Origin: a virus
Taxonomy: Duplodnaviria; Caudoviricetes
Virus record (IMG/VR): IMGVR_UViG_3300017963_000189
Direction: 5' to 3' (one strand)
Length of the DNA stretch: 64,000 nucleotides
Positions 8,006 through 53,708 of the stretch are shown piece after piece. Positions within the stretch are counted from its first letter, which is position 1, and every line of letters starts with the position of its first letter. Both the position numbers and the translations under genes were made by a program. The notes under the pieces were generated by a model. It was not told the DNA's origin. It was given only the letters and a program-made list of their open reading frames with translations, and ran no database searches.

Positions 8006-8044
8006 AATATACGAAAAAATATAACCTTTGTCAACTGTTTTCTG
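8006..8044 (-). promoter_or_regulatory. sigma70-type phage promoter P3
   Basis: CAGAAAACAG-TTGACA-17bp-TATATT. Confidence 0.85.
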
Positions 8045-9941: not shown

Positions 9942-12515
9942 TTATTTTTCAGTAAATAGTTTATTCAACGCACGGGCAAGAGGTACAACTTGAGTAACAT
10001 TAATATGTGTAGCATCTTTACCATACATCATTTTAAATCTACTCATATCAGGATCAACTTTTGATGTGATGAAGAATGACAAGATTTTCACACCATTCGC
10101 CCGAATCTTATCTACATTATGTTTCGCGATTTCATAAGCATTCATTCTTGAATACTCAGGAAGATTCTCATTTACCATATTAGGATAACCATCAGAGAAG
10201 TTTATAAAGTAACCATCTTTACCGCTCATTGATTTGAGAATGTCTTTCATCACCGCTTCATAACATAGACCTTCTGGAGTAATTCCAAAAGTTCCGATAT
10301 AAGGAAAGAGTTTTTGAATCTTTTTGAACTTATCTTTCCTTGAATCATATGCGATAACCATCAGAGGAATTTGATCATAATTATACCATTTACTCCGACG
10401 AGTTTTGGGTTTAGAATAAGTTCCACGAAATGAAATCACAACTTCAAGATTTTCAACTTGAGTAGCAGCGTAAGCAATCGCTACTGCAGCGATCATTGTG
10501 TTTTTCCATTTTTCACCACTCATTGAACCACTCGCATCAATAGTAATATGAACAACAGCGTTACCGTATTGATCTTTGTTGATTGTCTCAAAGATTTGAG
10601 TAGTACCAACACCTAATTGATGTAATAGGCGACGATCTACTTTCCCAAAGGTTTTACGTTTACTTTTATATACCTTAGTTTCATTTCTAACTTGTAGTTT
10701 CTTCGCCAGAAGTTTTCCTAAACGAGTACCAGTAGTCACAGCTTCTTGTGATTCAGAATCAATCTTCGCTTCGTAAATAGGGTTATAATCTTCGTCACGT
10801 TCCCCTGTGTAATCCTTATCACAAATCCCAAATGTCAACATAATGTCTTTGTTGAGTTTTCTAACTACATAAACATCGGTACCGGTTTTAGAATCACCTT
10901 GAACGTGTTCAACTGTCGTTCCAGCATCCTCAATATCTTTCAATGTCTTAGCATCTTTTTTACTCAAACCTTGTTTCTTAACGTCACCGTCTAACATATC
11001 GGATTGAGTTTCCAACTCTTTTTCAAGTTTCTTTTCATCTTTAGAATCTAAATCTTCAGGTTCTTCTTCGGGTTCTTCATCTTCCGATTCATCGTCAGAA
11101 TCTTCATCGTCGCTCTCATTACTTTCACTACCATTACTATCAGATTCATCATCAGTTTCATCTTCGTCTGATTCTTCGTCACCATCTTCACTTTCGTTAC
11201 TATCGTTACTATCGTTACTTTCGTTATCATCGTCATTTTCGTCTATATCTTCATCAGTTCCATCAGCATTTCCGCCTTTGGAATTTTCACTATCGTCGGA
11301 TTCTTCATCATTTTCAGTCTCGTCAGTATCACCATTACCAGATTCATCAGATTCGTTTTCATCATTTTCATCAGATTCGTCGTTTTCACCGTTTGTTGAA
11401 ACACCATCATCGGATGAAACATCGTCGTTTTCATCTTCGTTTTCAACGGAATCGTCATTTTCATTTTCATCAGATTCTTCTGATGGTTCATTACTTGGCT
11501 CAGGTGTTCCGCTATCACCAGGATCAGAATCATCTAAATCACCAGCATCTTCGTAATCGTCTCTATTATCATTTTCTTCAGGAACATCTTGACTTGATCC
11601 ATCACCGTCCTGCGGATCGCCTTGATCTGAAGATTCTTCGTTTTCATTTTCTTCATCTTGTTCGGGCTGCGGTGTAGGAATATTTTTAACAATCATTCTA
11701 ACAACTTCAATCGCAACGTCAATAACTTCTTGAGTATTCTCAAGACGAGAAATGTTGGCGACATCAATAAGATTAATAATATCTTCTAATCCAGGAAGAG
11801 CTTTAGGATCACTCGCGGGATTAATGTGATTGACAATTCTAAAATTGTATGATTTAAAATTTGGTTCACGACCAAAAGAACTTTCCAAACCTTTAGTGAT
11901 AAGTTTAGAATGAAAATATTTCTTATACAATGCTGTATAATATGGTTCGTAACCAGGAATCATCTTAATCATTTTATCATCAATACGACGATCTTCAATA
12001 TAATTTTCATAACTTTTTACGATTTTACGAATAATAACATCTAAATTATGATGTTCCGCATAACCAATTCTTGTAGATTCGTCAATCAAATCTTGTGGAA
12101 TTGTCCAAACATTTTTGGCTCCCCAACTATCCATCAAGTTTTTAAGAGCTTCCCAATCAGTCCAAAGAATATGACTTGACTCATGAAGTGCTAAACCAAC
12201 AACAGAATCAAACTCTTTATTCTTACATACAGCAGAAAGAATAACCTTATCTTCTTGATCGGTTACGTATGAATGACCTTTAAGATTATATACAACAGGA
12301 ATGTCTTTACGTGTAGCGATTTTTACGAATCGAGCGACTGCTCTACGATATGAAGCAAGAGTAATCAAATCTTTGTTATGTTTTGGAAGTTGACCTAACC
12401 AATAATTTGAATACAAATCATCAGTAGAATTTTCATCTTCGTCGCCAAAACCATAACGATCTTTAATTACTTCCTCTAAATAGTCAACATCGTTATATGT
12501 AAGTTCTTTACTCAT
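9942..12515 (-). CDS. HExxH metallopeptidase-like domain + acidic linker + vWA domain protein (MoxR partner)
   Basis: LALHESSH; about 210 aa D/E/N/S linker; MIDAS DASGS...T(PEG)...FSDG. Confidence 0.85.
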   Translation of the reverse strand: MSKELTYNDVDYLEEVIKDRYGFGDEDENSTDDLYSNYWLGQLPKHNKDLITLASYRRAVARFVKIATRKDIPVVYNLKGHSYVTDQEDKVILSAVCKNKEFDSVVGLALHESSHILWTDWEALKNLMDSWGAKNVWTIPQDLIDESTRIGYAEHHNLDVIIRKIVKSYENYIEDRRIDDKMIKMIPGYEPYYTALYKKYFHSKLITKGLESSFGREPNFKSYNFRIVNHINPASDPKALPGLEDIINLIDVANISRLENTQEVIDVAIEVVRMIVKNIPTPQPEQDEENENEESSDQGDPQDGDGSSQDVPEENDNRDDYEDAGDLDDSDPGDSGTPEPSNEPSEESDENENDDSVENEDENDDVSSDDGVSTNGENDESDENDENESDESGNGDTDETENDEESDDSENSKGGNADGTDEDIDENDDDNESNDSNDSNESEDGDEESDEDETDDESDSNGSESNESDDEDSDDESEDEEPEEEPEDLDSKDEKKLEKELETQSDMLDGDVKKQGLSKKDAKTLKDIEDAGTTVEHVQGDSKTGTDVYVVRKLNKDIMLTFGICDKDYTGERDEDYNPIYEAKIDSESQEAVTTGTRLGKLLAKKLQVRNETKVYKSKRKTFGKVDRRLLHQLGVGTTQIFETINKDQYGNAVVHITIDASGSMSGEKWKNTMIAAVAIAYAATQVENLEVVISFRGTYSKPKTRRSKWYNYDQIPLMVIAYDSRKDKFKKIQKLFPYIGTFGITPEGLCYEAVMKDILKSMSGKDGYFINFSDGYPNMVNENLPEYSRMNAYEIAKHNVDKIRANGVKILSFFITSKVDPDMSRFKMMYGKDATHINVTQVVPLARALNKLFTEK
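11030..11670 (-). repeat. acidic low-complexity coding tract, including the 9-bp tandem TCGTTACTA x3 (11194-11220)
   Basis: Dense GAT/GAC/GAA codons, NDS repeats. Confidence 0.85.
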
Positions 12516-12543
12516 TTAGTCCTATCCTTAATTTTTATACTTA

Positions 12544-12582
12544 AATATAACGAATTCCGACGTATTTGTCAACTGTTTTCTG
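12544..12582 (-). promoter_or_regulatory. sigma70-type phage promoter P4 (vWA gene)
   Basis: CAGAAAACAG-TTGACA-17bp-TATATT. Confidence 0.85.
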
Positions 12583-12834
12583 GTTTTTCTGGTGAAAAAA
12601 TTTTATCCCACCAACATATAATTGTTGCGATTATGGCGAGCCCGATAAAAAATACTAAACCACCAATAAATATAATTACAAATAATGTTCCTATCATTTT
12701 AATCCTTTATGAACAAAATAATGCTATTAAACCACAAATCCCTATAAACATGAATCGAGACTTTTGTTCTTCTGATGAAACTAAATATCCTATTACTCCA
12801 ATGAATAAAAAAAGTAACGCGAGTGATGTCATAT

Positions 12835-13089
12835 TTAATCCTTTAATATTTTTGTATGTTGATATAAATAATATGGGAATGAAAACATTGTGATAAGTCC
12901 GGCGACAACTCCAATGATTTGAAAGATACCAAATAATATAACCATGAAATATATATCCTTAAACCATACACCAATAACGGTACAAATAATAGTACATCCA
13001 AGTAATATTAAAAATCCAACCGTCATAACTAATGATTCTCTTTTCTCAAGATTCTTTATATCTACAAAATAGTTCCCTGTGAATTTCAT
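12835..13089 (-). CDS. membrane protein
   Basis: 2 TM segments. Confidence 0.65.
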   Translation of the reverse strand: MKFTGNYFVDIKNLEKRESLVMTVGFLILLGCTIICTVIGVWFKDIYFMVILFGIFQIIGVVAGLITMFSFPYYLYQHTKILKD

Positions 13090-13090
13090 A

Positions 13091-13351
13091 TCAGTCCTCT
13101 AATTTCTCTATCAAATATTGTGGGTATAAAAAACTCGCGACATATAAAACACAAACTGCTAAACAACCAACAATAACAATCGGTAATCCTATCATCTTTG
13201 TTTCTAATGATGAATTCAACCATGTATTGAAAACTAACCACCATTCAGCATAATTGAAATAATGTATTAGTGTCGGAGCAAATTTGATCGCTAAATATAA
13301 TTGAACCCAAAATGTTAATAACTGTAACGCTACAACTTTTCCTTTTTTCAT
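13091..13351 (-). CDS. membrane protein
   Basis: 2 TM segments; ATGA overlap. Confidence 0.65.
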   Translation of the reverse strand: MKKGKVVALQLLTFWVQLYLAIKFAPTLIHYFNYAEWWLVFNTWLNSSLETKMIGLPIVIVGCLAVCVLYVASFLYPQYLIEKLED

Positions 13352-13665
13352 AATACCTTTCCCTCAACCTTTACCTTTTTATATGTCTTAATTTCGTGTG
13401 GGCGAATAATATGAACTTTCTTAGTTCGTTCATCAACTAAATGAAGATATACAACCTTATTAAAGTTTTCTACACGAGCATAATTATCATCGTTGTCGCC
13501 ATCAAGTAATATATTCAACACGCGACCATCATGATAATAATATGTCATATCATATATTCCATCCATGTCTACTGTCGCCGTCGATTCAACTGTACAACTC
13601 GATAACAATAACCCAACTAATAACAATAACAAAAATCCCTTTAACTCTTTTGTAAATTCTATCAT
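13348..13665 (-). CDS. putative lipoprotein
   Basis: Hydrophobic stretch ending in the lipobox LSSC. Confidence 0.7.
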   Translation of the reverse strand: MIEFTKELKGFLLLLLVGLLLSSCTVESTATVDMDGIYDMTYYYHDGRVLNILLDGDNDDNYARVENFNKVVYLHLVDERTKKVHIIRPHEIKTYKKVKVEGKVL

Positions 13666-14063
13666 TCTTCATCCCCTTTCGGTTTTAAATGTGGAAATAA
13701 CTTGTAAAAACGCTTCCACGCCGTCTTTCGTTTTTTTCTTGGATAACGTAACCAACCACGCTGCGGGTGACCACTACCCTTATTTATAAAATCCTTGTTA
13801 TCTTGTCTGGGACGCTTAGGCATCTTGTTATACTTTTGACGTTCCTCACAAAATTTACTTCCTCTATAATTTTCCCACCATATCTCCCGAACATCCCCTA
13901 ATACCTTTAGATTCTTCGCCAGTTCAAAGATTTCATCAAGTATAGGATTACGATAATCACATTCATCTTTCAACTCTACAAACTTGTCATATTCCATCGG
14001 CCAAGTTATTGACATTAAATATATCATTCGTCGGTTCATCTTATTTCTTGACATCTTTTTCAT
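13662..14063 (-). CDS. basic hypothetical protein
   Basis: LRYPRKKRKTAWKRFYKLFP. Confidence 0.7.
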   Translation of the reverse strand: MKKMSRNKMNRRMIYLMSITWPMEYDKFVELKDECDYRNPILDEIFELAKNLKVLGDVREIWWENYRGSKFCEERQKYNKMPKRPRQDNKDFINKGSGHPQRGWLRYPRKKRKTAWKRFYKLFPHLKPKGDEE

Positions 14064-14293
14064 TAGAACTCTCCATCATTTGCTAAATGCCACTTTTGAC
14101 AATATGGACAAAAATAAACTTTCCATACTATACGTTCCCTATATCTCTCATTAGCTTCCCGGCCCCAAGCGAGTGCTTCTAACTCACTATTATATTGTTT
14201 CTTGTCACCACACATCTTTCGTCGCCGTTCTGCTTCTTCCTGTAACTCAGTGTCCCTGAGTTTCTTTTGTCGTCTTTTCTTTCTTCGTGTCAT
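14063..14293 (-). CDS. small zinc-binding phage protein
   Basis: CGDKKQY...YFCPYCQKWHL. Confidence 0.7.
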   Translation of the reverse strand: MTRRKKRRQKKLRDTELQEEAERRRKMCGDKKQYNSELEALAWGREANERYRERIVWKVYFCPYCQKWHLANDGEF

Positions 14294-14294
14294 A

Positions 14295-14585
14295 TCAATT
14301 CAACGGTTTAATATACAATCCATCTTTATAGGCGATAAAACCCTCTCCACCAAACCAACTCTCGGCTTCCCTACACATTTCGCCAGGTTTATGATCAAAA
14401 CCACATTTTACACATTTACCATTTAGATAATTTTTCTTAAAGTTATCACAAAAATCTGCGATGCTCATAACAGTAAAATATTGATCAAGATAAATATCCC
14501 ATAATTCTTCACAAGTCATTTTTGTCGTCTGACTCAACTTCCATATTCTACGTTTATTACGATTTCGTAACCTATTGAGATTCAT
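14295..14585 (-). CDS. zinc-finger protein
   Basis: CVKC..H....C. Confidence 0.65.
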   Translation of the reverse strand: MNLNRLRNRNKRRIWKLSQTTKMTCEELWDIYLDQYFTVMSIADFCDNFKKNYLNGKCVKCGFDHKPGEMCREAESWFGGEGFIAYKDGLYIKPLN

Positions 14586-14755
14586 TGTAACTCTCCATCT
14601 AAATAACCCAATATCAACTTTACAAGAGCATATATCAATGTAACACCACCAAAGAATATAAATCCTGCTGCGAGTGTTTGGAACGCTAATGATAATCCTA
14701 CTGAAAATAATAATGCTCCCATAAATAATACTTTTACCAATTCACTTTTATTCAT
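14582..14755 (-). CDS. membrane protein
   Basis: 2 TM; start moved to MNKSEL with GAAAGG RBS. Confidence 0.6.
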   Translation of the reverse strand: MNKSELVKVLFMGALLFSVGLSLAFQTLAAGFIFFGGVTLIYALVKLILGYLDGELQ

Positions 14756-15129
14756 TACATAATCCTTTCTATTATGTTTGTCGCCTTTTCCCAATTCCTG
14801 GCGAAAAATCTATTAATCTCAAATTTATTTAAACTATATATCAAAGTAATCAACAAACCAATTACTATAACAACCATATAAAGCAATAACACAGATTTAA
14901 GTTCTATACTATAAGTTTGATGAATCCAAAGAGCTAATACGGCGAGCCCGTAAAGAGCAGCAAAAACACCTAATGAAGTTAAAGTTGTTTTCCACTTTTT
15001 AATCATAATAACCCAGGGACGCCAGAACAAAAATCGTAACAACTCAAAAATCTTCAAGGCGACAAAAACAAGAATTGTCAATATAAACTTCAATACTCTT
15101 AATATGTAATATAAAATTATCCCAAACAT
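14755..15129 (-). CDS. membrane protein
   Basis: 3 hydrophobic segments. Confidence 0.65.
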   Translation of the reverse strand: MFGIILYYILRVLKFILTILVFVALKIFELLRFLFWRPWVIMIKKWKTTLTSLGVFAALYGLAVLALWIHQTYSIELKSVLLLYMVVIVIGLLITLIYSLNKFEINRFFARNWEKATNIIERIM

Positions 15130-15253
15130 TTCTTAATCTCCTTTATTAAAAGTACTGTCACAAATAAAGTAATTCCACCTAATATACCAACTATAAATGC
15201 TTCTACTAAAAAATTTACAAACGGACTTAACATAACCTCTGTTCCTTATAATA

Positions 15254-16498
15254 TTATTTAACAAGATTCATTCTTTTAATTGAACGATTACTACTTGTAC
15301 TCAATACATAAAAATAAGTTCCACTCGCTAACTCACTACCATCAAAATCTACGGAATAACTACCAACATTCAATCGACCATTAACTAATACTTCAACAAC
15401 CCTACCCTGAATGTCATATACAACTAACTTAACATTGTCGGTATTAGGAATACTAAATTCAATCGTAGTGTTCGGATTAAATGGATTCGGATAGTTTTGA
15501 AAAACATTAAACTCAATAGGAATGTCGCCTAACGTCTCAATAGAATTTGGTTCTTCTACCTTTGGTTCGGTTAACGGACTCTCGTAGGCACCTAAATCAG
15601 GTAACCCAGGACCACATCTCGGATTTCCCTCTATATCTAATTCGGGAGCATAATACATCGTTGAATCAACTAATATGGAATCAACTCCAGCTCCAATAGC
15701 GGATGAATAATCACTTAAATGATAATCGTTGTTTTCAAGTGAAACAAACACTGTGTCGCCCAATGTCTCACCGAATGGGGCATAAATCGAATTTGATATT
15801 GTCGCTTCTCCATCATGTGCGTTTAAAGTAACACTTTTTGTAATAATAGAATTGATAACTGTTATCTTTAATCTACTCTTGTCGGTTTCTTGATAGCCTT
15901 CAATCGGACCGGTAACAGTTGAATTCATAATAATAGAATGAAAAACTTCCTTTGGTTCTTTACGTTCACTCTCACTATAAAGATAAATACCAGTATAAAA
16001 ATCAAGTCCATAAACTATACTATTCGTCATTTCAGTAGAAGTAGATATGAAAGCAACTCCGGCGAAATGATTTGAATTCACAATAAGATTGCGTAATTTA
16101 CAAGAAATGTTTTCATTAAAATTATTAGACATACATAAAACTTGAGCGCCATAGTCTTCAAATCCCCAACTAATTGCTCTACCCCCTTTAATAGTAAATC
16201 CAATTACTTCACTACTATCAGCTTGTACCCATAATGCTTCGCCAGAACCTAAATCACCATCAATAATTGTATTCAAAATATGAAAATATCTGGCGTCCAA
16301 TATAAATTCTGAAGCTAAAACAATACTCTTGTTAAGTATAACATTTGAGTATGTTCCATCACGAACGATTATTGTATCACCATCTGCTACGGAATCAATA
16401 GCCGTTTGAATCGTCGGATAATTATCCGGTACATATACCGTTTCACCAAACGATAACGACACTAAAACTAAACTTAACAAAATAACTAAATACTTCAT
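15254..16498 (-). CDS. secreted right-handed beta-helix protein with T9SS type-A C-terminal sorting domain
   Basis: Sec signal; VPDNYPTIQTAID..ADGDTIIVRDGTY; DYHL...SAIGAG...DIEGNPR...DLGAYE; QNYPNPFNP...SGTYFY...KRMNLVK. Confidence 0.85.
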   Translation of the reverse strand: MKYLVILLSLVLVSLSFGETVYVPDNYPTIQTAIDSVADGDTIIVRDGTYSNVILNKSIVLASEFILDARYFHILNTIIDGDLGSGEALWVQADSSEVIGFTIKGGRAISWGFEDYGAQVLCMSNNFNENISCKLRNLIVNSNHFAGVAFISTSTEMTNSIVYGLDFYTGIYLYSESERKEPKEVFHSIIMNSTVTGPIEGYQETDKSRLKITVINSIITKSVTLNAHDGEATISNSIYAPFGETLGDTVFVSLENNDYHLSDYSSAIGAGVDSILVDSTMYYAPELDIEGNPRCGPGLPDLGAYESPLTEPKVEEPNSIETLGDIPIEFNVFQNYPNPFNPNTTIEFSIPNTDNVKLVVYDIQGRVVEVLVNGRLNVGSYSVDFDGSELASGTYFYVLSTSSNRSIKRMNLVK

Positions 16499-16517
16499 AA
16501 TATAACCCTTTCTTTGT

Positions 16518-16781
16518 TTATTTACTTTCATCTAATATATTATCTATATACCAAATATCTGCTTCGGTAATCGGATCAAATTCTTCCTTGAAATATTTAC
16601 GACCAAATGAATCTTCTATATATCCACTTTCGCCCACATTCCACTGATCACGAAACATCAATCCATCATATTCTTCCTGAGTAATGTATATCCGCATCCA
16701 GAATCGCGGTGGTACATCATACATCGCTTTTACATACCTGTACTTCTGTCCTCGGTATTCCATCTTAAACTCCATATCCAT
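16518..16781 (-). CDS. hypothetical protein
   Basis: 87 aa in operon. Confidence 0.65.
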   Translation of the reverse strand: MDMEFKMEYRGQKYRYVKAMYDVPPRFWMRIYITQEEYDGLMFRDQWNVGESGYIEDSFGRKYFKEEFDPITEADIWYIDNILDESK

Positions 16782-16918
16782 TTATCAACTGAAATTGTTT
16801 CAACTTCTCAATCTCAATCTTAGTTCTAATAATATCCAACTCCAATTTAATTATTTGAGCTTGACGCTGATCGATGATCTTACTTTTGAGTAATCTCATA
16901 ACATCTTTGTATACATCA

Positions 16919-17206
16919 CTATTTCTTGACATTTTTATTTCCTTTTACACTAATATAAGACTTTTTAGAATACTTGTCAACTGTTTTTTTCAGATACCAT
17001 TGATAAATGGCGAAAATCTTATCAAAAAATGTAACATCACTTACTAAGTAACAACTGTGTTCTTGACCAGTATACTTCACTTTATTATCATGAAATATCT
17101 TTTCTTTTCCATACTTAGTACAATAAATGTATTTACCATGTTCATTCTTGAATATACATTTTTCGCCAACTAAAATGTTATTAAAATACTTTTTTTCTAA
17201 CTTCAT
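16919..17206 (-). CDS. hypothetical protein
   Basis: 95 aa; promoter P5 lies inside its 3' end. Confidence 0.6.
   Translation of the reverse strand: MKLEKKYFNNILVGEKCIFKNEHGKYIYCTKYGKEKIFHDNKVKYTGQEHSCYLVSDVTFFDKIFAIYQWYLKKTVDKYSKKSYISVKGNKNVKK
16952..16987 (-). promoter_or_regulatory. sigma70-type phage promoter P5
   Basis: AAAACAG-TTGACA-17bp-TATATT. Confidence 0.75.
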
Positions 17207-17520
17207 TAAAATATCCCACTAAAACTTTGAAATGAAAATCCCATTATTAAAATTAAAAATACACCGATCGCCGTCAACAATGAAAATATCGATATTCCTA
17301 CAAATTCCATCGGTGTCATACTTTGCAATGTTGTATTCTTGTCATATGTAAAATACAAAAATAAAACTCCAACAACTATCAAGAAAATTCCAGGGTTATC
17401 GGCGAAAACAAAAATAATCGACACCAATACACTTATTATTACTGAAATTAAAAGTATACCTACAAATAACCCTACTAACCAATGACTACCTTGATTAAAA
17501 TTTTGTCTACTCGTGTACAT
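17206..17520 (-). CDS. membrane protein
   Basis: 3 TM segments. Confidence 0.7.
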   Translation of the reverse strand: MYTSRQNFNQGSHWLVGLFVGILLISVIISVLVSIIFVFADNPGIFLIVVGVLFLYFTYDKNTTLQSMTPMEFVGISIFSLLTAIGVFLILIMGFSFQSFSGIF

Positions 17521-17654
17521 TATATTTCCCTCGTGTTTAATTCAACTATAACTTTGTTTATCTCGCCCATTTCTTGTATGGAAGCACAAATGTAGCCAAT
17601 AAGATAGGCGACAACCATCAAAAGAATACCTAATATAATCCATAAAAACATAAT

Positions 17655-17861
17655 TTACTCCATCAAATATTTATCTAAATAATTTTTAATTATTGTAAGT
17701 TTCTTTACTGTACCATGTACGTAAAACATACTTGTATAAAATGAAATCTTTGTTTCTGTCCAAAACTCAATATACTTTTTTTCTTCACACTCAATACAAA
17801 ATCGTCTGAAATCAGCCTTCCCAAAACCACTAACCTCATATCTCATTTTCGCTTCACTCAT
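17655..17861 (-). CDS. hypothetical protein
   Basis: 68 aa in operon. Confidence 0.6.
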   Translation of the reverse strand: MSEAKMRYEVSGFGKADFRRFCIECEEKKYIEFWTETKISFYTSMFYVHGTVKKLTIIKNYLDKYLME

Positions 17862-17863
17862 TA

Positions 17864-18127
17864 TTAACCCTTTCCAAATAATCTAATCAAAATTGCTAAT
17901 AACGCGGATAATATAACTAAATCTTGTACCTTTAAATCACTCACTGGTTTATCAAACCAACTAGCAACTTGTGGTGAAGTAGCTATCATTTCTAATACAT
18001 GGGCGAGAAAATAAACAATACAAAATAAAACAAATAATCCTATAATTGTTCCCACAATTAAAAGTATAGCCTTTCCAAACCACGAATCTAAAATACTCCA
18101 AAATCCTAATGTAATCTTATTCCACAT
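17864..18127 (-). CDS. membrane protein
   Basis: Start moved to MWNK with GGAAAGG RBS; 2 TM. Confidence 0.65.
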   Translation of the reverse strand: MWNKITLGFWSILDSWFGKAILLIVGTIIGLFVLFCIVYFLAHVLEMIATSPQVASWFDKPVSDLKVQDLVILSALLAILIRLFGKG

Positions 18128-18145
18128 ATAAAACCTTTCCACAAG

Positions 18146-18182
18146 TTAAAGTGTCAACTAAATATTAAAGTGTCAACTAAAT
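18146..18182. repeat. tandem 18-bp direct repeat TTAAAGTGTCAACTAAAT x2 (period 19)
   Basis: Copies at 18146-18163 and 18165-18182. Confidence 0.9.
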
Positions 18183-18356
18183 TCGTTTTGTATATGTTAT
18201 CAACACTGAATATTTCCTATCACTCATTTGATATTGTAACTCACATGAAACCCGTTCGTCGGGATATAGTGAATCTAAAAAATCATTTACCTTTTTCTCA
18301 AAACTTACTTCACGAGTATCTTCTATTAATTTAACCTGAAATTTCTTTGGTGACAT
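18177..18356 (-). CDS. small protein (59 aa, not in track), similar pattern to 36505
   Basis: MSPKKFQVKLIE...EKKVNDFL...YSVLITY. Confidence 0.6.
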   Translation of the reverse strand: MSPKKFQVKLIEDTREVSFEKKVNDFLDSLYPDERVSCELQYQMSDRKYSVLITYTKRI

Positions 18357-18372
18357 AACTTATTCCTTTTAA

Positions 18373-18660
18373 TTAGTCATTTATTAATAATAATCTTATT
18401 CCATCTTCACTTTTATAATTCCATCCAGCTATCTCGTCACTGTTCATATCATTGTGCGTATGAAAAAATACCTTGTGATTCTCGGTCTCAACATTGATAA
18501 CTTCCACGGAATCAAAATGTAACTTACCCTTACTATCCCTACGAGCGGGACCGGAAAAATCGTCAAAACGACCATCTAACTCGGATACTTCCCAAACTAA
18601 ACTACGGTTCTTCTTGTTCCAAGCACGTTTCATCAATTCCTTTGTTACATATAATCTCAT
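18373..18660 (-). CDS. hypothetical protein
   Basis: Start moved to MRLY; first gene after P6. Confidence 0.7.
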   Translation of the reverse strand: MRLYVTKELMKRAWNKKNRSLVWEVSELDGRFDDFSGPARRDSKGKLHFDSVEVINVETENHKVFFHTHNDMNSDEIAGWNYKSEDGIRLLLIND

Positions 18661-18693
18661 TCCTAAAATCCTTTCAAATTTTATCAGTACTAT

Positions 18694-18732
18694 AATATAC
18701 AAAATAAAACCGTATTTGTCAACTGTTTTCTG
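18694..18732 (-). promoter_or_regulatory. sigma70-type phage promoter P6
   Basis: CAGAAAACAG-TTGACA-17bp-TATATT; TGA is the stop of 18719-18970. Confidence 0.85.
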
Positions 18733-18970
18733 ATAAATCTGGTAACTTTGGTAAATCCACTTTCATAAAATGTGCTTCCTCTACCTCACTCTCGTACATA
18801 AACTGCCCGCTCGCTACATACATAAATCCATTAGCACACCTGTGTACTTCCATAAACATTAACTCCGGTTTAACGGTCTCACCATTCGGTCTGTCATACT
18901 TACCATATCGATAACCATAAAACCAATAACAACCTTCCTCTTTCGGAAATTCTCTACTCCATTTACTCAT
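18719..18970 (-). CDS. hypothetical protein
   Basis: WSREFPKEEGCYWFY; GGAGAA RBS. Confidence 0.7.
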   Translation of the reverse strand: MSKWSREFPKEEGCYWFYGYRYGKYDRPNGETVKPELMFMEVHRCANGFMYVASGQFMYESEVEEAHFMKVDLPKLPDLSENS

Positions 18971-19092
18971 TCTAATTCTCCATTTCTCGGGGCGAGCCCG
19001 ATACCAATCACTCTTTTAATAATTTTACGTTCGGAAACGGCGACTCCACCAATAATTACTTTAATTAATTTCTCGCCGCTAACCAATATCCT

Positions 19093-19284
19093 TTAATTAA
19101 AAATAATCGTTTCGGAAACTTCTCTGGGTTGCGGAATATAAATAACTTCACCATCGGTAAATATGTTCATTTCCTTAAACTCGTATAAAGGAAGTTCCTC
19201 AATATCATCTACTAAATCAATCGGTACGTTTCGTATAACCTTTTCACCTGAATCGTTGTGAAATATCATCTTGACTGTAACCAT
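19093..19284 (-). CDS. hypothetical protein
   Basis: 63 aa; GAAAGG RBS. Confidence 0.6.
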   Translation of the reverse strand: MVTVKMIFHNDSGEKVIRNVPIDLVDDIEELPLYEFKEMNIFTDGEVIYIPQPREVSETIIFN

Positions 19285-19303
19285 TAAATAACCTTTCCTT
19301 TCT

Positions 19304-19918
19304 TTACCTCTGTAATACTAACTTCTTAGTGTCTCTAAAATACGTTGTCGTCATTTGATAAAAATATACACCACTCGATACCTGTTCACCATTATCATTC
19401 CTACCATCCCACCGTATCTTGTAATGTCCTATATCCTTACTCTCGTCAACTAAAACCCTAACCTTGTTCCCTAACATATCATAAACTACTATCGTTACAC
19501 TCGTGTTCTTTGCTATACTATACTCAATCGTCGTTATGGGATTAAACGGGTTCAGATAATTTTGAGATAAATCATACGATTTATCTCCGTCATTATCCTC
19601 ACCAACAATTCGTGTAACTGTCGTGCTGACTTCATTCGACGGCCCACTCTCTAATACATTTAAAGAATCATCATGATATACTGCTGTGACTTTCCAATAA
19701 TATGTCTCTCCCTCTGTAATCTGGTAATCATAATAAAAGGAATCTAAACCCGCTACATTATCTAAATATACCATCGTTCCTGCTTGTATATCCCTATACA
19801 TCCTATAATCAATAAGTGTATAATTTGGATCATTAGGTGGCGTCCACTCTAAATGTATATATTCCTGAGAAAATAACCCTTGACTTAATAAAAATAAAAA
19901 TATTAATAATTTTCTCAA
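19304..19918 (-). CDS. secreted FN3 protein with T9SS/FlgD-Ig-like C-terminal sorting domain
   Basis: Sec signal; LEWTPP...YRMYR...Y.D..I..G.TYYWKVTAV...ES.PSNEV; QNYLNPFNP...WDGRNDNGEQVSSGVYFY...KKLVLQR. Confidence 0.85.
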   Translation of the reverse strand: MRKLLIFLFLLSQGLFSQEYIHLEWTPPNDPNYTLIDYRMYRDIQAGTMVYLDNVAGLDSFYYDYQITEGETYYWKVTAVYHDDSLNVLESGPSNEVSTTVTRIVGEDNDGDKSYDLSQNYLNPFNPITTIEYSIAKNTSVTIVVYDMLGNKVRVLVDESKDIGHYKIRWDGRNDNGEQVSSGVYFYQMTTTYFRDTKKLVLQR

Positions 19919-19946
19919 TGCGCCTCTCCGGTTACGGCGACAATCC

Positions 19947-20129
19947 TTATTTCTTCTTGTCCACCAATTCTGCTTTCATGATACTTACATCAACTACTAT
20001 ATATGCTAAAGCTAATAATACCATTCTCTCAAATGTATATATTCCAACATCAACACTTATTACAAATACAAAGTATACTATTAAATATGATCCAATTCTT
20101 TGAAAAACTCTTTTTGTGTGTTTATCCAT
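19947..20129 (-). CDS. membrane protein
   Basis: 2 TM segments. Confidence 0.6.
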   Translation of the reverse strand: MDKHTKRVFQRIGSYLIVYFVFVISVDVGIYTFERMVLLALAYIVVDVSIMKAELVDKKK

Positions 20130-20514
20130 TCTTTAATATCCCTTTTATTACATCAGCTAATGCTTTTAATCCCTCTAATGTGTCTACATGATATAAACCT
20201 ACTCCAAATCCCTTATACCATTCTTTAGGTGACGGACATCCACAATGACCAGCAACCCGAACAACCTGACCATATTCCTTATGTAACTTCTCGGCGACAT
20301 CCGCAGGAATACCCGGCCCTCGACATACCCAATATGTCCACGCTCTCTCAAATCCCCAACCTGAACCCTTAATCTCTCCAATTACGGATGTAGGTACTTC
20401 ACCATCAAAAGGGCGACTGAATTTCGTATACTCAATACCAGCATACTTTAATTCTCTGATAATACCATCGTCACAATCCGCAACACCAGCATAATTCTTT
20501 AAATAATCATCCAT
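20122..20514 (-). CDS. conserved phage protein
   Basis: WGFERAWTYW...VRVAGHCGCPSP...YHVDTLEGL. Confidence 0.75.
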   Translation of the reverse strand: MDDYLKNYAGVADCDDGIIRELKYAGIEYTKFSRPFDGEVPTSVIGEIKGSGWGFERAWTYWVCRGPGIPADVAEKLHKEYGQVVRVAGHCGCPSPKEWYKGFGVGLYHVDTLEGLKALADVIKGILKNG

Positions 20515-20681
20515 TTCTAATACCTTTCTCTTATCCTAATACCTCTATTTCATATCTACCATCAGGTAAATCATTAATTCTGTATGTTAAATGTTTCTTA
20601 TCCAACTCTTTGATAGCTTTACCGAGTTTGCTGACTACAAATCTCGCTATTACTCGTCCTTTCATTGTGTCGCCTTTCTTT

Positions 20682-21125
20682 TTATAAATTTCTTATCTCT
20701 ATTGAATCATCATACTCTAAATCGTATACATACTCTGTAGAATCACTTAAAATCTCAATCGTAGTCTCAACTAAAAAATCTGTATATACACCTAATGAAT
20801 CCTTTGGTACAATATATATCTGCTGAGCTAATGTGTAATACTCATAATAATCTTCATCCCACGCGTACCAGATCATCGAAATCGCTAATACACTGTCACT
20901 CGTCAATTTTGTGATGTCTGCCATATCAGGTGATAAAAATAACATTCCATCGTCGCCATTTGTAATACAAAATAAATCACTATCATCAAAACTCGTTTCA
21001 AGTGAATCTAAAAATTGTGTTTCTAATGAACTATATTCAAGACCATCGGTTACCCAAATCGTTGTCGGTAACTCTTGACCAAAACTTATTCCAACTAATA
21101 AAATGAATATTAAACTAAATCTCAT
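20682..21125 (-). CDS. secreted acidic protein
   Basis: Sec signal MRFSLIFILLVGISFG. Confidence 0.75.
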   Translation of the reverse strand: MRFSLIFILLVGISFGQELPTTIWVTDGLEYSSLETQFLDSLETSFDDSDLFCITNGDDGMLFLSPDMADITKLTSDSVLAISMIWYAWDEDYYEYYTLAQQIYIVPKDSLGVYTDFLVETTIEILSDSTEYVYDLEYDDSIEIRNL

Positions 21126-21269
21126 TAACCCATTTCTCCCATTCTTTACGGGTATACCATTTATCTCTATAATAATGTCCTTTACACTTCGGACAAAATA
21201 TGTGAATTAAATCCATACCACTAAGATTTTGCGTTCCCTTGTTACCACAAAATTTACATTTCTTTGATT

Positions 21270-23443: not shown

Positions 23444-23482
23444 AATATACGAAAAAATAGCGTATTTGTCAACTGTTTTCTG
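23444..23482 (-). promoter_or_regulatory. sigma70-type phage promoter P7
   Basis: CAGAAAACAG-TTGACA-17bp-TATATT. Confidence 0.85.
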
Positions 23483-30413: not shown

Positions 30414-30442
30414 AATATACGAAATTATTTCGTATTTGTCAA
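30414..30442 (-). promoter_or_regulatory. sigma70-type phage promoter P12
   Basis: TTGACA-17bp-TATATT with TTCG before -10; TGA is the stop of 30439-30804. Confidence 0.75.
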
Positions 30443-40708: not shown

Positions 40709-40747
40709 AATATACGAAATTTCTGGTTACTTGTCAACTGTTTTCTG
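40709..40747 (-). promoter_or_regulatory. sigma70-type phage promoter P13
   Basis: CAGAAAACAG-TTGACA-17bp-TATATT. Confidence 0.85.
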
Positions 40748-53678: not shown

Positions 53679-53708
53679 AAATATACGAAATTTTTTACAC
53701 GTTGTCAA
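53679..53708 (-). promoter_or_regulatory. sigma70-type phage promoter P15 (ligA)
   Basis: TTGACA-18bp-TATATT with TTTCG before -10. Confidence 0.7.

What the first reader, a model, noticed from the sequence alone, without database searches (positions are those of the whole stretch)
15254..16498. Phage-encoded type IX secretion cargo: beta-helix protein with T9SS sorting domain
Seen: Sec signal, parallel beta-helix start, a choice-of-anchor-Q-like segment and a textbook NYPNPFNP...SGTYFY...KRMNLVK C-terminal domain. Established: a Sec signal plus type-A CTD (TIGR04183-like) defines T9SS cargo in FCB bacteria. Inference: the phage uses the host T9SS to display or secrete a glycan-binding or glycan-degrading protein, for example for receptor masking, capsule thinning or superinfection exclusion. 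I know of no characterised phage T9SS cargo.
Basis: partly seen in the sequence, partly recalled or inferred. Interest (0 to 1): 0.8.

Follow-up and report, generated by a model that had tools for sequence, protein, structure and literature searches.

The report
Jumbo-phage gene for T9SS-exported beta-helix protein
A giant uncultured marine or sediment phage carries an intact gene, and a second smaller one nearby, for proteins bearing both export tags of the bacterial type IX secretion pathway, so the phage probably puts its own proteins on the surface of the infected cell; such genes have been noted in phages before, but none has been tested.

Summary
Window 15254-16498 (-) encodes a 414-aa protein with four parts:
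- a Sec-type signal peptide;
- a right-handed beta-helix, supported at fold level only;
- a sub-threshold choice-of-anchor-Q-like segment;
- a terminal T9SS type A sorting domain that passes both curated cut-offs (TIGR04183 42.9/23 bits; PF18962 39.6/27 bits).

The context is a phage. The window belongs to a 161-kb IMG/VR virus record, and contigs up to 309 kb carry the neighbouring cargo-2 gene. All genes lie on one strand, with baseplate, helicase, RNA-ligase and NAD-ligase genes, and GC and skew are uniform.

The gene sits in a block of small, membrane-rich genes driven by a repeated TTGACA-N17-TATATT promoter. A syntenic related phage fragment lacks the four-gene stretch that holds it.

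A second cargo (19304-19918, signal peptide + FN3-like + CTD) is conserved at 67-69% in relatives. Loosely related phages carry CTD cargo with other passenger domains.

The nearest CTDs are from Ignavibacteria, Balneolales and other FCB lineages, which do encode SprA. The host itself is unidentified.

Phage T9SS cargo was reported in 2019 and 2020, and this scan has found it on other phage DNA. This is therefore a new member of a known but untested kind. Function (glycan binding or cleavage, surface remodelling) remains inference.

The parts
15254..16498 (-). Cargo 1 gene: 414 aa plus stop. An alternative upstream ATG at 16531 would give 425 aa.
16445..16498 (-). Sec-type signal peptide, aa 1-18 (MKYLVILLSLVLVSLSFG, predicted cut before E19)
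   Evidence: Sequence inspection; hydrophobic segment; AF2 helix 2-15. No SignalP was run.
15824..16444 (-). Right-handed parallel beta-helix passenger, about aa 19-225 (DUF1565/Pmp/NosD-like by fold)
   Evidence: Sequence HMMs are only weak: NosD E 3e-4 and no PF13229 match.
15578..15724 (-). Choice-of-anchor-Q-like segment, aa 259-307; sub-threshold and poorly modelled
   Evidence: NF041518 20.7 bits against cut-off 25; motif conserved in A1; pLDDT below 50
15257..15493 (-). T9SS type A C-terminal sorting domain, aa 336-414 (QNYPNPFNP ... SGTYFY ... KRMNLVK)
   Evidence: AF2 gives a strand-rich Ig-like domain (6 strands listed) with block pLDDT about 70-90. Foldseek hit to the T9SS-bound NucA CTD 8glk_D, TM by target 0.65.
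16952..16980 (-). Sigma-70-type promoter TTGACA-N17-TATATT, the nearest one upstream of cargo 1; member of a repeated phage promoter family
   Evidence: 17 sites on the minus strand; 1.8 expected on both strands
15133..16932 (-). Four-gene stretch (55-aa, 87-aa, cargo 1 and 43-aa ORFs) that is absent at the syntenic place of the related phage fragment L175
19304..19918 (-). Cargo 2: 204 aa with signal peptide, FN3-like domain and T9SS type A CTD; TTG start behind GGAGAGG
   Evidence: (35.3 bits against cut-off 23)
20682..21125 (-). Third predicted secreted protein: 147 aa, signal peptide, very acidic, no CTD and no Pfam family
13348..13665 (-). Predicted lipoprotein (LLLSSC lipobox-like) in the same envelope-rich block
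   Evidence: no Pfam family

Best explanation
The gene encodes a genuine phage-borne cargo of the host's type IX secretion system.

Inferred route, from the established behaviour of type A CTD proteins:
- The signal peptide takes the protein through Sec into the periplasm.
- The folded Ig-like CTD is recognised by the host T9SS (SprA/Sov translocon with PorV).
- The CTD is removed by the PorU sortase.
- The beta-helix passenger is either released or anchored on the outer face of the outer membrane.

The passenger belongs to the very common beta-helix + CTD surface proteins of FCB bacteria (DUF1565/Pmp/NosD-like). It most likely binds, and less likely cuts, a surface or environmental polysaccharide.

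The gene sits in an early-type block that is rich in membrane and secreted proteins and is driven by a repeated sigma-70-like promoter. It is a flexible, moron-like accessory gene, whereas the neighbouring small FN3 cargo is conserved in relatives. Together these genes probably remodel the envelope of the infected cell, for example by masking or removing receptors against superinfection or against loss of progeny on debris.

Shown here: domain architecture, phage context, flexibility, recurrence in other phages.
Inferred: export route, timing, function.
For: Architecture
- The CTD passes both curated cut-offs at the extreme C-terminus.
- An Ig-like fold is modelled at block pLDDT about 70-90, and it matches a T9SS-bound substrate CTD.
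- A signal peptide is present.
- The passenger has a beta-helix fold.

Phage context
- The window belongs to a 161-kb virus record with all ORFs on one strand.
- Baseplate, Dda helicase, RNA ligase, NAD ligase, ThyA and virion protein genes are present.
- A single contig covers both cargo genes at even depth.

Promoters and neighbourhood
- The promoter family occurs 17 times on the coding strand against 1.8 expected, and one copy lies about 450 nt upstream of cargo 1.
- 13 of 28 genes at 12-21 kb have hydrophobic segments, against 20 of 135 elsewhere (p = 5e-4).

Comparison with other phages
- The related fragment L175 keeps cargo 2 (67% identity) and flanking genes but lacks the stretch holding cargo 1.
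- Other phage loci that share genes with this phage carry CTD cargo with DUF285+FN3, cohesin or unknown passengers.
- Two near-complete phages of 207 and 210 kb encode signal peptide + CTD proteins.

Host lineages
- The nearest CTDs come from Ignavibacteria, Melioribacteraceae, Balneolales, KSB1, Cloacimonadota and Neomarinimicrobiota.
- Five such genomes all encode SprA, and three encode PorV over cut-off.
Against: - The host is not identified, so the presence of a T9SS in it is inferred only from the CTDs.
- Host signals disagree on the class. The CTD flavour points to Ignavibacteria or Balneolales. The named homologues of the phage TonB-dependent receptor, at about 40% identity, are nearly all Cytophagales-type Bacteroidota. 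Heavy Shine-Dalgarno use (59% against a 12% background) and TTGACA promoters argue against classical Bacteroidia.
- No RNA data are available, so 'early' rests only on promoter type and gene-block style.
- No enzyme family or catalytic residues could be assigned. Within the beta-helix core of 13 homologues, N216 is the only invariant column, so glycan cleavage is unsupported.
- AF2 confidence is moderate (mean pLDDT 67.8), and aa 227-327 are poorly modelled.
- The various contigs carrying the identical protein may derive from one sampling campaign. Runs X1 and X2 have identical contig sets.
Confidence: 0.65

Rival explanations
1. T9SS jamming or competition. The CTD itself is the active part. 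Early, abundant phage cargo, especially the nearly passenger-less cargo 2, occupies the PorV/SprA/PorU or anchoring sites. This shuts down display of host adhesins, gliding proteins or receptors. The beta-helix is secondary.
For: - Cargo 2 is only 204 aa, with one small FN3-like domain, and is the conserved member of the pair.
- Passenger domains differ freely between related phages while the CTD stays constant.
- The first-stage note e1-5406260 raised the same idea, but it is not independent evidence.
Against: - Cellular homologues with the same small SP-FN3-CTD architecture exist in ordinary chromosomal context (P0131). The small size is therefore not phage-specific.
- The FN3 part is as conserved as the CTD in the alignment.
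- Expression level was not measured.
Confidence: 0.12
2. Virion protein. The beta-helix is a tailspike-like depolymerase, and the C-terminal Ig-like domain is a virion decoration or adhesion module, as Ig-like domains are on many phage structural proteins. It would not be a secretion signal.
For: - Foldseek lists phage tailspikes among weak hits: CBA120 TSP2, E about 2e-3, TM about 0.25.
- Beta-helix depolymerases are typical phage receptor-binding proteins (general knowledge).
Against: - A cleavable Sec signal peptide is present on both CTD genes.
- The gene lies among tiny early-style and membrane genes, far from the baseplate region at 9-20 kb of the record.
- The closest relatives are cellular surface proteins with the same SP + beta-helix + CTD layout.
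- No PHROG family matches.
Confidence: 0.07
3. Inert passenger. The gene was captured recently from a bacterium and has no role in infection, or it works in a host whose T9SS does not recognise it.
For: - Cargo 1 is absent from the closest available relative.
- Its nearest full-length homologues are only 35-36% identical, so no conservation within phages can be shown for it.
Against: - The frame is intact with all CTD motifs, a good start context and phage-like composition.
- The identical protein occurs on several contigs.
- A second CTD gene is conserved at 67-69% in relatives with invariant CTD motifs.
- CTD cargo recurs in related and unrelated large phages.
Confidence: 0.08
4. Assembly chimera or host contamination. 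Under this reading the CTD genes are bacterial DNA joined to phage DNA.
For: - Some IMG/VR 'viral' contigs found through the same motif look cellular: L035 encodes a PorU-like C25 protein, and L028 has a similar ORF layout.
- Logan contigs break at the repeated promoters.
Against: - Both genes lie about 113-117 kb into a 161-kb record, flanked by phage genes on the same strand.
- GC and skew do not change there.
- One 18,335-bp contig spans 12564-24000 and beyond with 0 differences, at the same depth as its flanks.
- The JGI 63-kb contig shows the same order.
- A relative from another sample has cargo 2 in synteny.
Confidence: 0.02

Closest known systems
Phage-encoded T9SS type A CTD cargo of 'Cryophage' (Bellas et al. 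2020, Nat Commun, PMC7468147)
   Same: These are uncultured phage genes with a T9SS type A sorting domain. The cargo genes vary between phage variants. The authors interpret them as hijacking the host T9SS for surface or secreted proteins, possibly in superinfection or competition.
   Different: - The passengers there are an endoglucanase, a GH39 and a PA14 protein, from cryoconite, a different habitat. Here the passenger is a family-less beta-helix plus a small FN3 cargo.
- This phage is a jumbo phage (contigs up to 309 kb) from marine or sediment samples.
- The genes here lie in an early-type, promoter-studded envelope block.
- Neither case has been tested experimentally.
T9SS sorting-domain proteins noted in crAss-BACON gut phage contigs (de Jonge et al. 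2019, Viruses, PMC6949934)
   Same: CTD-bearing ORFs were seen in phage contigs of Bacteroidota hosts.
   Different: Those lie next to head genes, and some carry BACON repeats. There was no analysis of signal peptides, flexibility or expression context.
Cellular beta-helix + T9SS CTD surface proteins of FCB bacteria (Ignavibacteriota, Fidelibacterota/Marinimicrobia, Cloacimonadota; DUF1565/Chlam_PMP/Beta_helix clusters)
   Same: They have the same layout: signal peptide, N-terminal VP..Y.TIQ.AID.A..GDT cap, beta-helix, choice-of-anchor-Q-like segment and NYPNPFNP-type CTD. Identity is 27-38% overall and up to 64% in the CTD.
   Different: - The phage copy is shorter.
- Its GGG/Pmp-like repeats are degenerate.
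- It is encoded in a phage.
- The cellular family is itself uncharacterised.
Phage T5 Llp and other early envelope proteins that block receptors (superinfection exclusion) - a functional analogy only
   Same: In both, an early-expressed, Sec-exported phage protein acts at the outer membrane of the infected cell (general knowledge, not tested here).
   Different: Llp is a small lipoprotein acting on FhuA. There is no T9SS, no sequence or fold relation, and the analogy is untested.

Membership tests
T9SS type A cargo (TIGR04183 / PF18962 Por_Secre_tail) | Sorting-domain HMM above the curated cut-off | tested here: met
   TIGR04183 42.9 bits (cut-off 23); PF18962 39.6 bits (cut-off 27). 46.6 bits in the genome scan, with 0 of 14 control genomes hit.
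T9SS type A cargo (TIGR04183 / PF18962 Por_Secre_tail) | Domain at the extreme C-terminus, with the conserved GxY and terminal K..K motifs | tested here: met
   aa 336-409 of 414; SGTYFY and KRMNLVK-stop; these columns are conserved in A1.
T9SS type A cargo (TIGR04183 / PF18962 Por_Secre_tail) | N-terminal Sec signal peptide | tested here: met
   MKYLVILLSLVLVSLSFG|E, judged by inspection and hydropathy and AF2 helix 2-15. No dedicated predictor was available.
T9SS type A cargo (TIGR04183 / PF18962 Por_Secre_tail) | Ig-like beta-sandwich fold of the CTD | tested here: met
   Six strands are listed between aa 343 and 412, with block pLDDT about 70-90. Foldseek hits 8glk_D, a NucA CTD in a T9SS complex, with TM by target 0.65, and the Rhodothermus ManA C-terminus.
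T9SS type A cargo (TIGR04183 / PF18962 Por_Secre_tail) | Producer cell has a T9SS (SprA/Sov, PorV, PorU ...) | not testable with these tools
   The host is unknown. Indirectly, 5 of 5 genomes with the nearest CTDs have SprA over cut-off and 3 of 5 have PorV over cut-off. The 161-kb phage record itself has no PorV.
T9SS type A cargo (TIGR04183 / PF18962 Por_Secre_tail) | T9SS-dependent export and CTD removal by PorU | not testable with these tools
   Needs an experiment.
Right-handed parallel beta-helix proteins (Pfam clan: Beta_helix, NosD, DUF1565, Pel9A-like) | Sequence HMM match over cut-off | tested here: not met
   No Pfam beta-helix family at E<=1. No PF13229 match in the record. NosD TIGR04247 scores 19.4 bits against cut-off 300. 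Homologues do carry PF13229, PF07602, PF22842 and PF02415.
Right-handed parallel beta-helix proteins (Pfam clan: Beta_helix, NosD, DUF1565, Pel9A-like) | Beta-helix fold | tested here: met
   AF2 strand ladder over aa 20-220. Foldseek probability 1.0 to CE8, PL6 and PL9 helices, though TM is only 0.3-0.4. Atlas model TM 0.6-0.75 to beta-helix clusters.
Polysaccharide lyase / pectinesterase / glycosidase beta-helix enzymes | Conserved catalytic residues of a named family | tested here: inconclusive
   The profile search against PDB gives only generic repeats (GH28, PL6, GH120; E 4e-5 to 3e-4). No charged column is invariant in the helix core of A1, although that alignment is poor there.
Choice-of-anchor Q domain (NF041518) | HMM above cut-off | tested here: not met
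   20.7 bits against cut-off 25, E 3.7e-4, aa 259-307. The motif is visible in A1.
Phage moron / flexible accessory gene | Present or absent between related phages at a fixed place, with its own promoter | tested here: met
   L175 has homologues of window 16919-17206 and of 14063-14293, plus a weak one of 14755-15129, next to each other without the 15133-16932 stretch. The promoter at 16952-16980 is absent from the corresponding place in L175. Only one relative was available.

The most novel reading that the evidence does not exclude
A jumbo phage of an uncultured FCB bacterium, possibly outside classical Bacteroidia, uses an early-expressed, exchangeable set of T9SS cargo proteins together with its own lipoprotein, small membrane proteins and even a TonB-dependent receptor. 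With these it rebuilds the outer surface of the infected cell. The CTD would serve as a portable address tag that lets the phage lineage swap passengers (beta-helix, FN3, DUF285, cohesin) in an arms race over receptors and superinfection.
Probability: 0.3. Interest if true: 0.65.

Novelty: new member of a known kind. Interest (0 to 1): 0.42.

Why it matters
If phages routinely send their own proteins through the host's type IX secretion system, the surface of infected FCB cells in oceans, sediments and guts is partly phage-made. That would affect adsorption of other phages, polysaccharide turnover and cell-cell contacts.

This locus is a clean test case:
- two intact cargo genes, one flexible and one conserved;
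- clear promoters;
- many comparable phage loci.

The idea is already in the literature. What is missing is an experiment, and the uncultured host makes that hard here.

Tried and rejected
- GenBank/INPHARED phages: neither 11 kb of DNA nor the protein by tblastn found any match. No cultured relative could be used.
- The search for related loci with the single protein found no viral relative. Only the alignment-based scan did, and mostly through the CTD.
- PHROGs: no family matches cargo 1.
- Type B CTD (TIGR04131): no match in the record, but the control genomes did not ring either, so this is uninformative.
- PorV in the phage record: none. The record is only part of the genome.
- The listing of cluster members gave no organism names for the closest cellular homologues. 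The taxon of P0003/P0004 stays unknown.
- The contig of the best full-length homologue P0002 could not be read (no DNA). Its phage nature is only suggested by small unnamed ORFs.
- Sequencing runs: no RNA holder is listed, so nothing can be said on expression.
- The two DNA holders have identical contig sets and are probably one data set filed twice. They are not independent support.
- Joints reported all sit at the repeated promoter sequences. I read them as repeat-induced graph breaks, not rearrangements.
- Host assignment from the phage TonB-dependent receptor gave only about 40% identity, and nearly all named hits were Bacteroidota. This is too distant to settle the class, and it partly disagrees with the CTD-based signal.
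- Complex prediction was not used. No specific partner is claimed.
Full report
**What is there**

Window 15254..16531 on the minus strand is an open frame of 425 aa.
- It is preceded by GAAAGGG at a suitable distance, while the upstream ATG has no such site and overlaps the preceding gene.
- JGI gene calls on other contigs give 414 aa.
- All homologues start at the equivalent MK.

The protein begins with MKYLVILLSLVLVSLSFG followed by E. This is a standard Sec signal: a basic n-region, a hydrophobic core, and small residues at -3 and -1. No signal-peptide predictor was available, so the call rests on inspection, a hydropathy scan and the AF2 helix at residues 2-15.

The last 80 residues carry QNYPNPFNP, SGTYFY and KRMNLVK-stop. 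They match the T9SS type A sorting domain above both curated cut-offs: PF18962 at 39.6 bits against 27, and TIGR04183 at 42.9 bits against 23. In the genome-wide scan the model scored 46.6 bits here and hit none of 14 control genomes.

AF2 models this part as a strand-rich Ig-like domain with block pLDDT about 70-90. Foldseek aligns it to the NucA CTD bound in a T9SS complex (8glk_D, TM by target 0.65) and to the C-terminus of Rhodothermus ManA.

**The passenger**

Residues 20-220 are modelled as a right-handed beta-helix with pLDDT mostly 70-90.
- Foldseek finds pectin methylesterases, PL6 and PL9 lyases and archaeal surface glycoproteins at probability 1.0, but TM is only 0.3-0.4.
- The ESM Atlas model of the same protein aligns at TM 0.6-0.75 to clusters annotated Beta_helix/DUF1565/Chlam_PMP/NosD. 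Several of these also carry Por_Secre_tail and come from Ignavibacteriota, Fidelibacterota, Cloacimonadota, Fibrobacterota and Gemmatimonadota.

At sequence level membership fails. No Pfam beta-helix model matches, and NosD is far below its cut-off. The choice-of-anchor-Q model reaches 20.7 bits against a cut-off of 25, although its motif is visible in the family alignment.

A profile of 13 homologues against PDB sequences finds only generic repeats of GH28, PL6 and GH120 proteins. In the helix core, N216 is the only invariant column.

I therefore cannot name an enzyme family. A binding or structural surface role is slightly favoured over catalysis, and neither is shown.

**Is it in a phage?**

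The window is positions 97612-161611 of a 161,620-bp IMG/VR virus record. The identical cargo 1 protein lies on contigs up to 288 kb, and the cargo 2 protein on contigs up to 309 kb.

- Every ORF of 200 aa or more across the 161 kb is on the minus strand.
- GC (0.31-0.37) and GC skew do not change around the gene.
- PHROG matches include baseplate wedge proteins, Dda-like and other helicases, a T4-type RNA ligase, NadR, a nicotinamide phosphoribosyltransferase-like protein, NAD-dependent DNA ligase, thymidylate synthase and virion structural proteins. They lie on both sides of the locus.
- A single 18,335-bp Logan contig covers 12564-24000 and beyond without a difference, at the same depth as the flanks.
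- A 63-kb JGI contig shows the same gene order.

One caveat applies. The two sequencing runs that hold the region have identical contig sets and are probably one data set. Independence of the assemblies is therefore not established.

Independent support comes instead from a relative in another sample, described below. I put a chimera at about 2%.

**Neighbourhood and expression signals**

A sigma-70-type promoter, TTGACA-N17-TATATT, often with a shared AAATACG...TTTCG spacer, occurs 17 times on the coding strand with at most one mismatch. About 1.8 are expected on both strands together.

One copy at 16952-16980 lies about 450 nt upstream of cargo 1. Only a 55-aa and an 87-aa ORF lie between them.

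The region 12-21 kb consists of very small genes. Thirteen of its 28 genes have hydrophobic segments, against 20 of 135 in the rest of the window (Fisher p = 5e-4). The block includes:
- a lipoprotein-like gene (13348-13665);
- a third secreted, very acidic protein (20682-21125);
- a second T9SS cargo (19304-19918).

The style is that of an early, host-RNA-polymerase-read block devoted to the envelope. The timing itself is inferred, and no RNA run was listed.

**The second cargo**

Window 19304-19918 (-) encodes 204 aa: a signal peptide, one FN3-like domain, a GEDN linker and a CTD. TIGR04183 gives 35.3 bits against 23, PF13860 36.3 bits and PF18962 27.0 bits. The gene starts at TTG behind GGAGAGG.

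The two phage CTDs are only 41% identical to each other. That is less than the identity of cargo 1's CTD to cellular CTDs (up to 64%), so a recent duplication is unlikely.

Cargo 2 has full-length homologues at 69% and 67% identity. It also has cellular homologues of the same architecture at 44-49%. One of these sits in an ordinary chromosomal context with an ECF sigma factor, a HEPN/NT pair and a GWxTD protein. The CTD motifs are invariant across all of them.

**Flexibility**

The 67% homologue lies on L175, a 5.5-kb contig from another sample made of small same-strand ORFs.

L175 has homologues of the following window genes, in the same order:

| Window gene | Identity in L175 |
|---|---|
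| 19093-19284 | 67% |
| 17206-17520 | 30% |
| 16919-17206 | 46% |
| 14755-15129 | 39% (weak) |
| 14063-14293 | 43% |

The genes matching 16919-17206 and 14755-15129 abut in L175. The 1.8-kb stretch 15133-16932, which holds the 55-aa ORF, the 87-aa ORF, cargo 1 and the 43-aa ORF, is therefore missing.

The homology of the upstream gene ends at residue 82. The window copy has 13 extra residues there, overlapping the promoter. L175 has no promoter copy at that place.

Cargo 1 thus behaves as a moron-like flexible gene, and cargo 2 as a conserved one. Only one relative was available for this comparison.

**Recurrence**

An alignment-based scan of IMG/VR found 79 loci with this CTD flavour.

Some are probably cellular. 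L035 encodes a PorU-like C25 protein with its own CTD, and L028 has a similar ORF layout.

Others share further genes with this phage, and their CTD genes pass PF18962:

| Locus | Passenger | Length | Note |
|---|---|---|---|
| L013 | DUF285 repeats + FN3 | 886 aa | immediately upstream of the homologue of the window's 857-aa gene |
| L069 | cohesin | 646 aa | |
| L033 | unknown | 244 aa | 3 kb downstream of a 73%-identical homologue of window 20122-20514 |

Two near-complete phages of 207 kb and 210 kb each encode a signal peptide + CTD protein over cut-off.

The CTD therefore looks like a portable address tag with exchangeable passengers in large phages of FCB hosts.

**Host**

The best CTD matches among species-representative genomes are overwhelmingly Ignavibacteria and Melioribacteraceae. 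Balneolales/Rhodothermales, KSB1, Cloacimonadota, Neomarinimicrobiota and Calditrichaceae follow.

Five such genomes all encode SprA above cut-off, and three encode PorV above cut-off. These lineages therefore have the machinery.

59% of the phage's genes have a GGAG/GAGG/AGGA core upstream, against 12% at random positions, and the promoters are of the TTGACA type. From general knowledge, Bacteroidia and Flavobacteriia use TTTG/TAnnTTTG promoters and little Shine-Dalgarno pairing. This argues for a host outside those classes, as a first-stage note also suggested.

Against this, the phage-encoded TonB-dependent receptor has about 40% identity to its cellular homologues, and nearly all the named ones are Cytophagales-type Bacteroidota.

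I conclude that the host is an FCB bacterium of unresolved class. The runs that hold the DNA are labelled sediment and seawater metagenomes.

**Mechanism proposed**

Shown here:
- the two export signals and the fold;
- the phage location and the promoter family;
- flexibility and recurrence.

Inferred from the established T9SS pathway:
- Sec export and periplasmic folding;
- CTD recognition by PorV/SprA;
- CTD cleavage by PorU;
- release of the passenger or its anchoring to the cell surface.

Inferred from context: early expression and a role in remodelling the infected cell's surface, such as receptor masking or removal, superinfection exclusion, or protection of progeny from debris.

**Comparison with what is known**

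Bellas et al. 2020 described three variable genes with T9SS type A sorting domains in 'Cryophage' and proposed hijacking of the host system (PMC7468147). De Jonge et al. 2019 noted T9SS sorting-domain ORFs in gut phage contigs (PMC6949934).

Earlier follow-ups in this scan reported phage T9SS cargo on other DNA: e1-3262260, e1-3410721 and e1-3489770.

I found no experimental characterisation of any phage T9SS cargo in two literature searches.

**Verdict**

Function and host remain open.

This is a new member of a known but untested kind. The details of interest are the jumbo phage, the early envelope block, one flexible plus one conserved cargo, and a probable host outside classical Bacteroidia. 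Interest is moderate.

Noticed in passing
window, 17 sites on the minus strand (e.g. 78-106, 2914-2942, 8006-8034, 12544-12572, 16952-16980, 18694-18722, 23444-23472, 30414-30442, 40709-40737, 53680-53708): A repeated promoter, TTGACA-N17-TATATT, often with the shared spacer AAATACG...TTTCG. It occurs 17 times on the coding strand against about 1.8 expected. Logan contigs break exactly at these repeats.
   Followed up: partly
window 12500-21200: A block of very small genes strongly enriched for hydrophobic or secreted products (13 of 28 against 20 of 135 elsewhere, p = 5e-4). It includes a lipoprotein-like gene (13348-13665) and an acidic secreted 147-aa protein (20682-21125) with no known family.
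   Followed up: partly
G000:C1:28198-30171 (= L004:9198-11171, minus strand), outside the window: A phage-encoded TonB-dependent receptor (precomputed Pfam PF07715 + PF00593). Homologues at 79-86% identity lie on small contigs, presumably related phages. Cellular homologues are only about 40% identical, and nearly all the named ones are Cytophagales-type Bacteroidota.
   Followed up: partly
L035:4892-10258 (L028 has a similar ORF layout): The IMG/VR 'viral' contig L035 encodes a 1788-aa PorU-like protein (Propeptide_C25, Peptidase_C25_C, CTD), that is, a T9SS sortase. It is probably cellular DNA or a provirus flank. L028 carries a 1533-aa ORF in a similar layout but was not scanned. Raw counts of CTD genes in IMG/VR therefore overestimate phage cargo.
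   Followed up: partly
L079 (IMGVR_UViG_3300028840_004184, 170 kb, terminal repeats, same JGI sample as one contig of this phage): Another complete large phage carries a relative of the N-terminal beta-helix cap (query aa 14-147, 33% identity) but has no TIGR04183 match anywhere in its genome.
   Followed up: no
L083-L088: Five viral loci share homologues of the record's 1363-aa and 217-aa proteins (G000:C1:1504-5595 and 781-1434). They also show a weak (25-26% identity) CTD-like stretch nearby. This may be an Ig-like domain on a structural protein rather than a sorting signal.
   Followed up: no
runs X1 and X2: The two public runs holding the region, labelled sediment 2018 and seawater 2021, have identical Logan contig lengths (11007, 268, 1399, 18335, 7043, 3665). 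They are probably one data set filed twice, so they are not independent.
   Followed up: no
window 18373-18702: The longest-ORF start (TTG at 18702) lies upstream of the transcription start implied by the promoter at 18694-18722. The JGI call of 95 aa (start about 18660) fits the promoter better.
   Followed up: no
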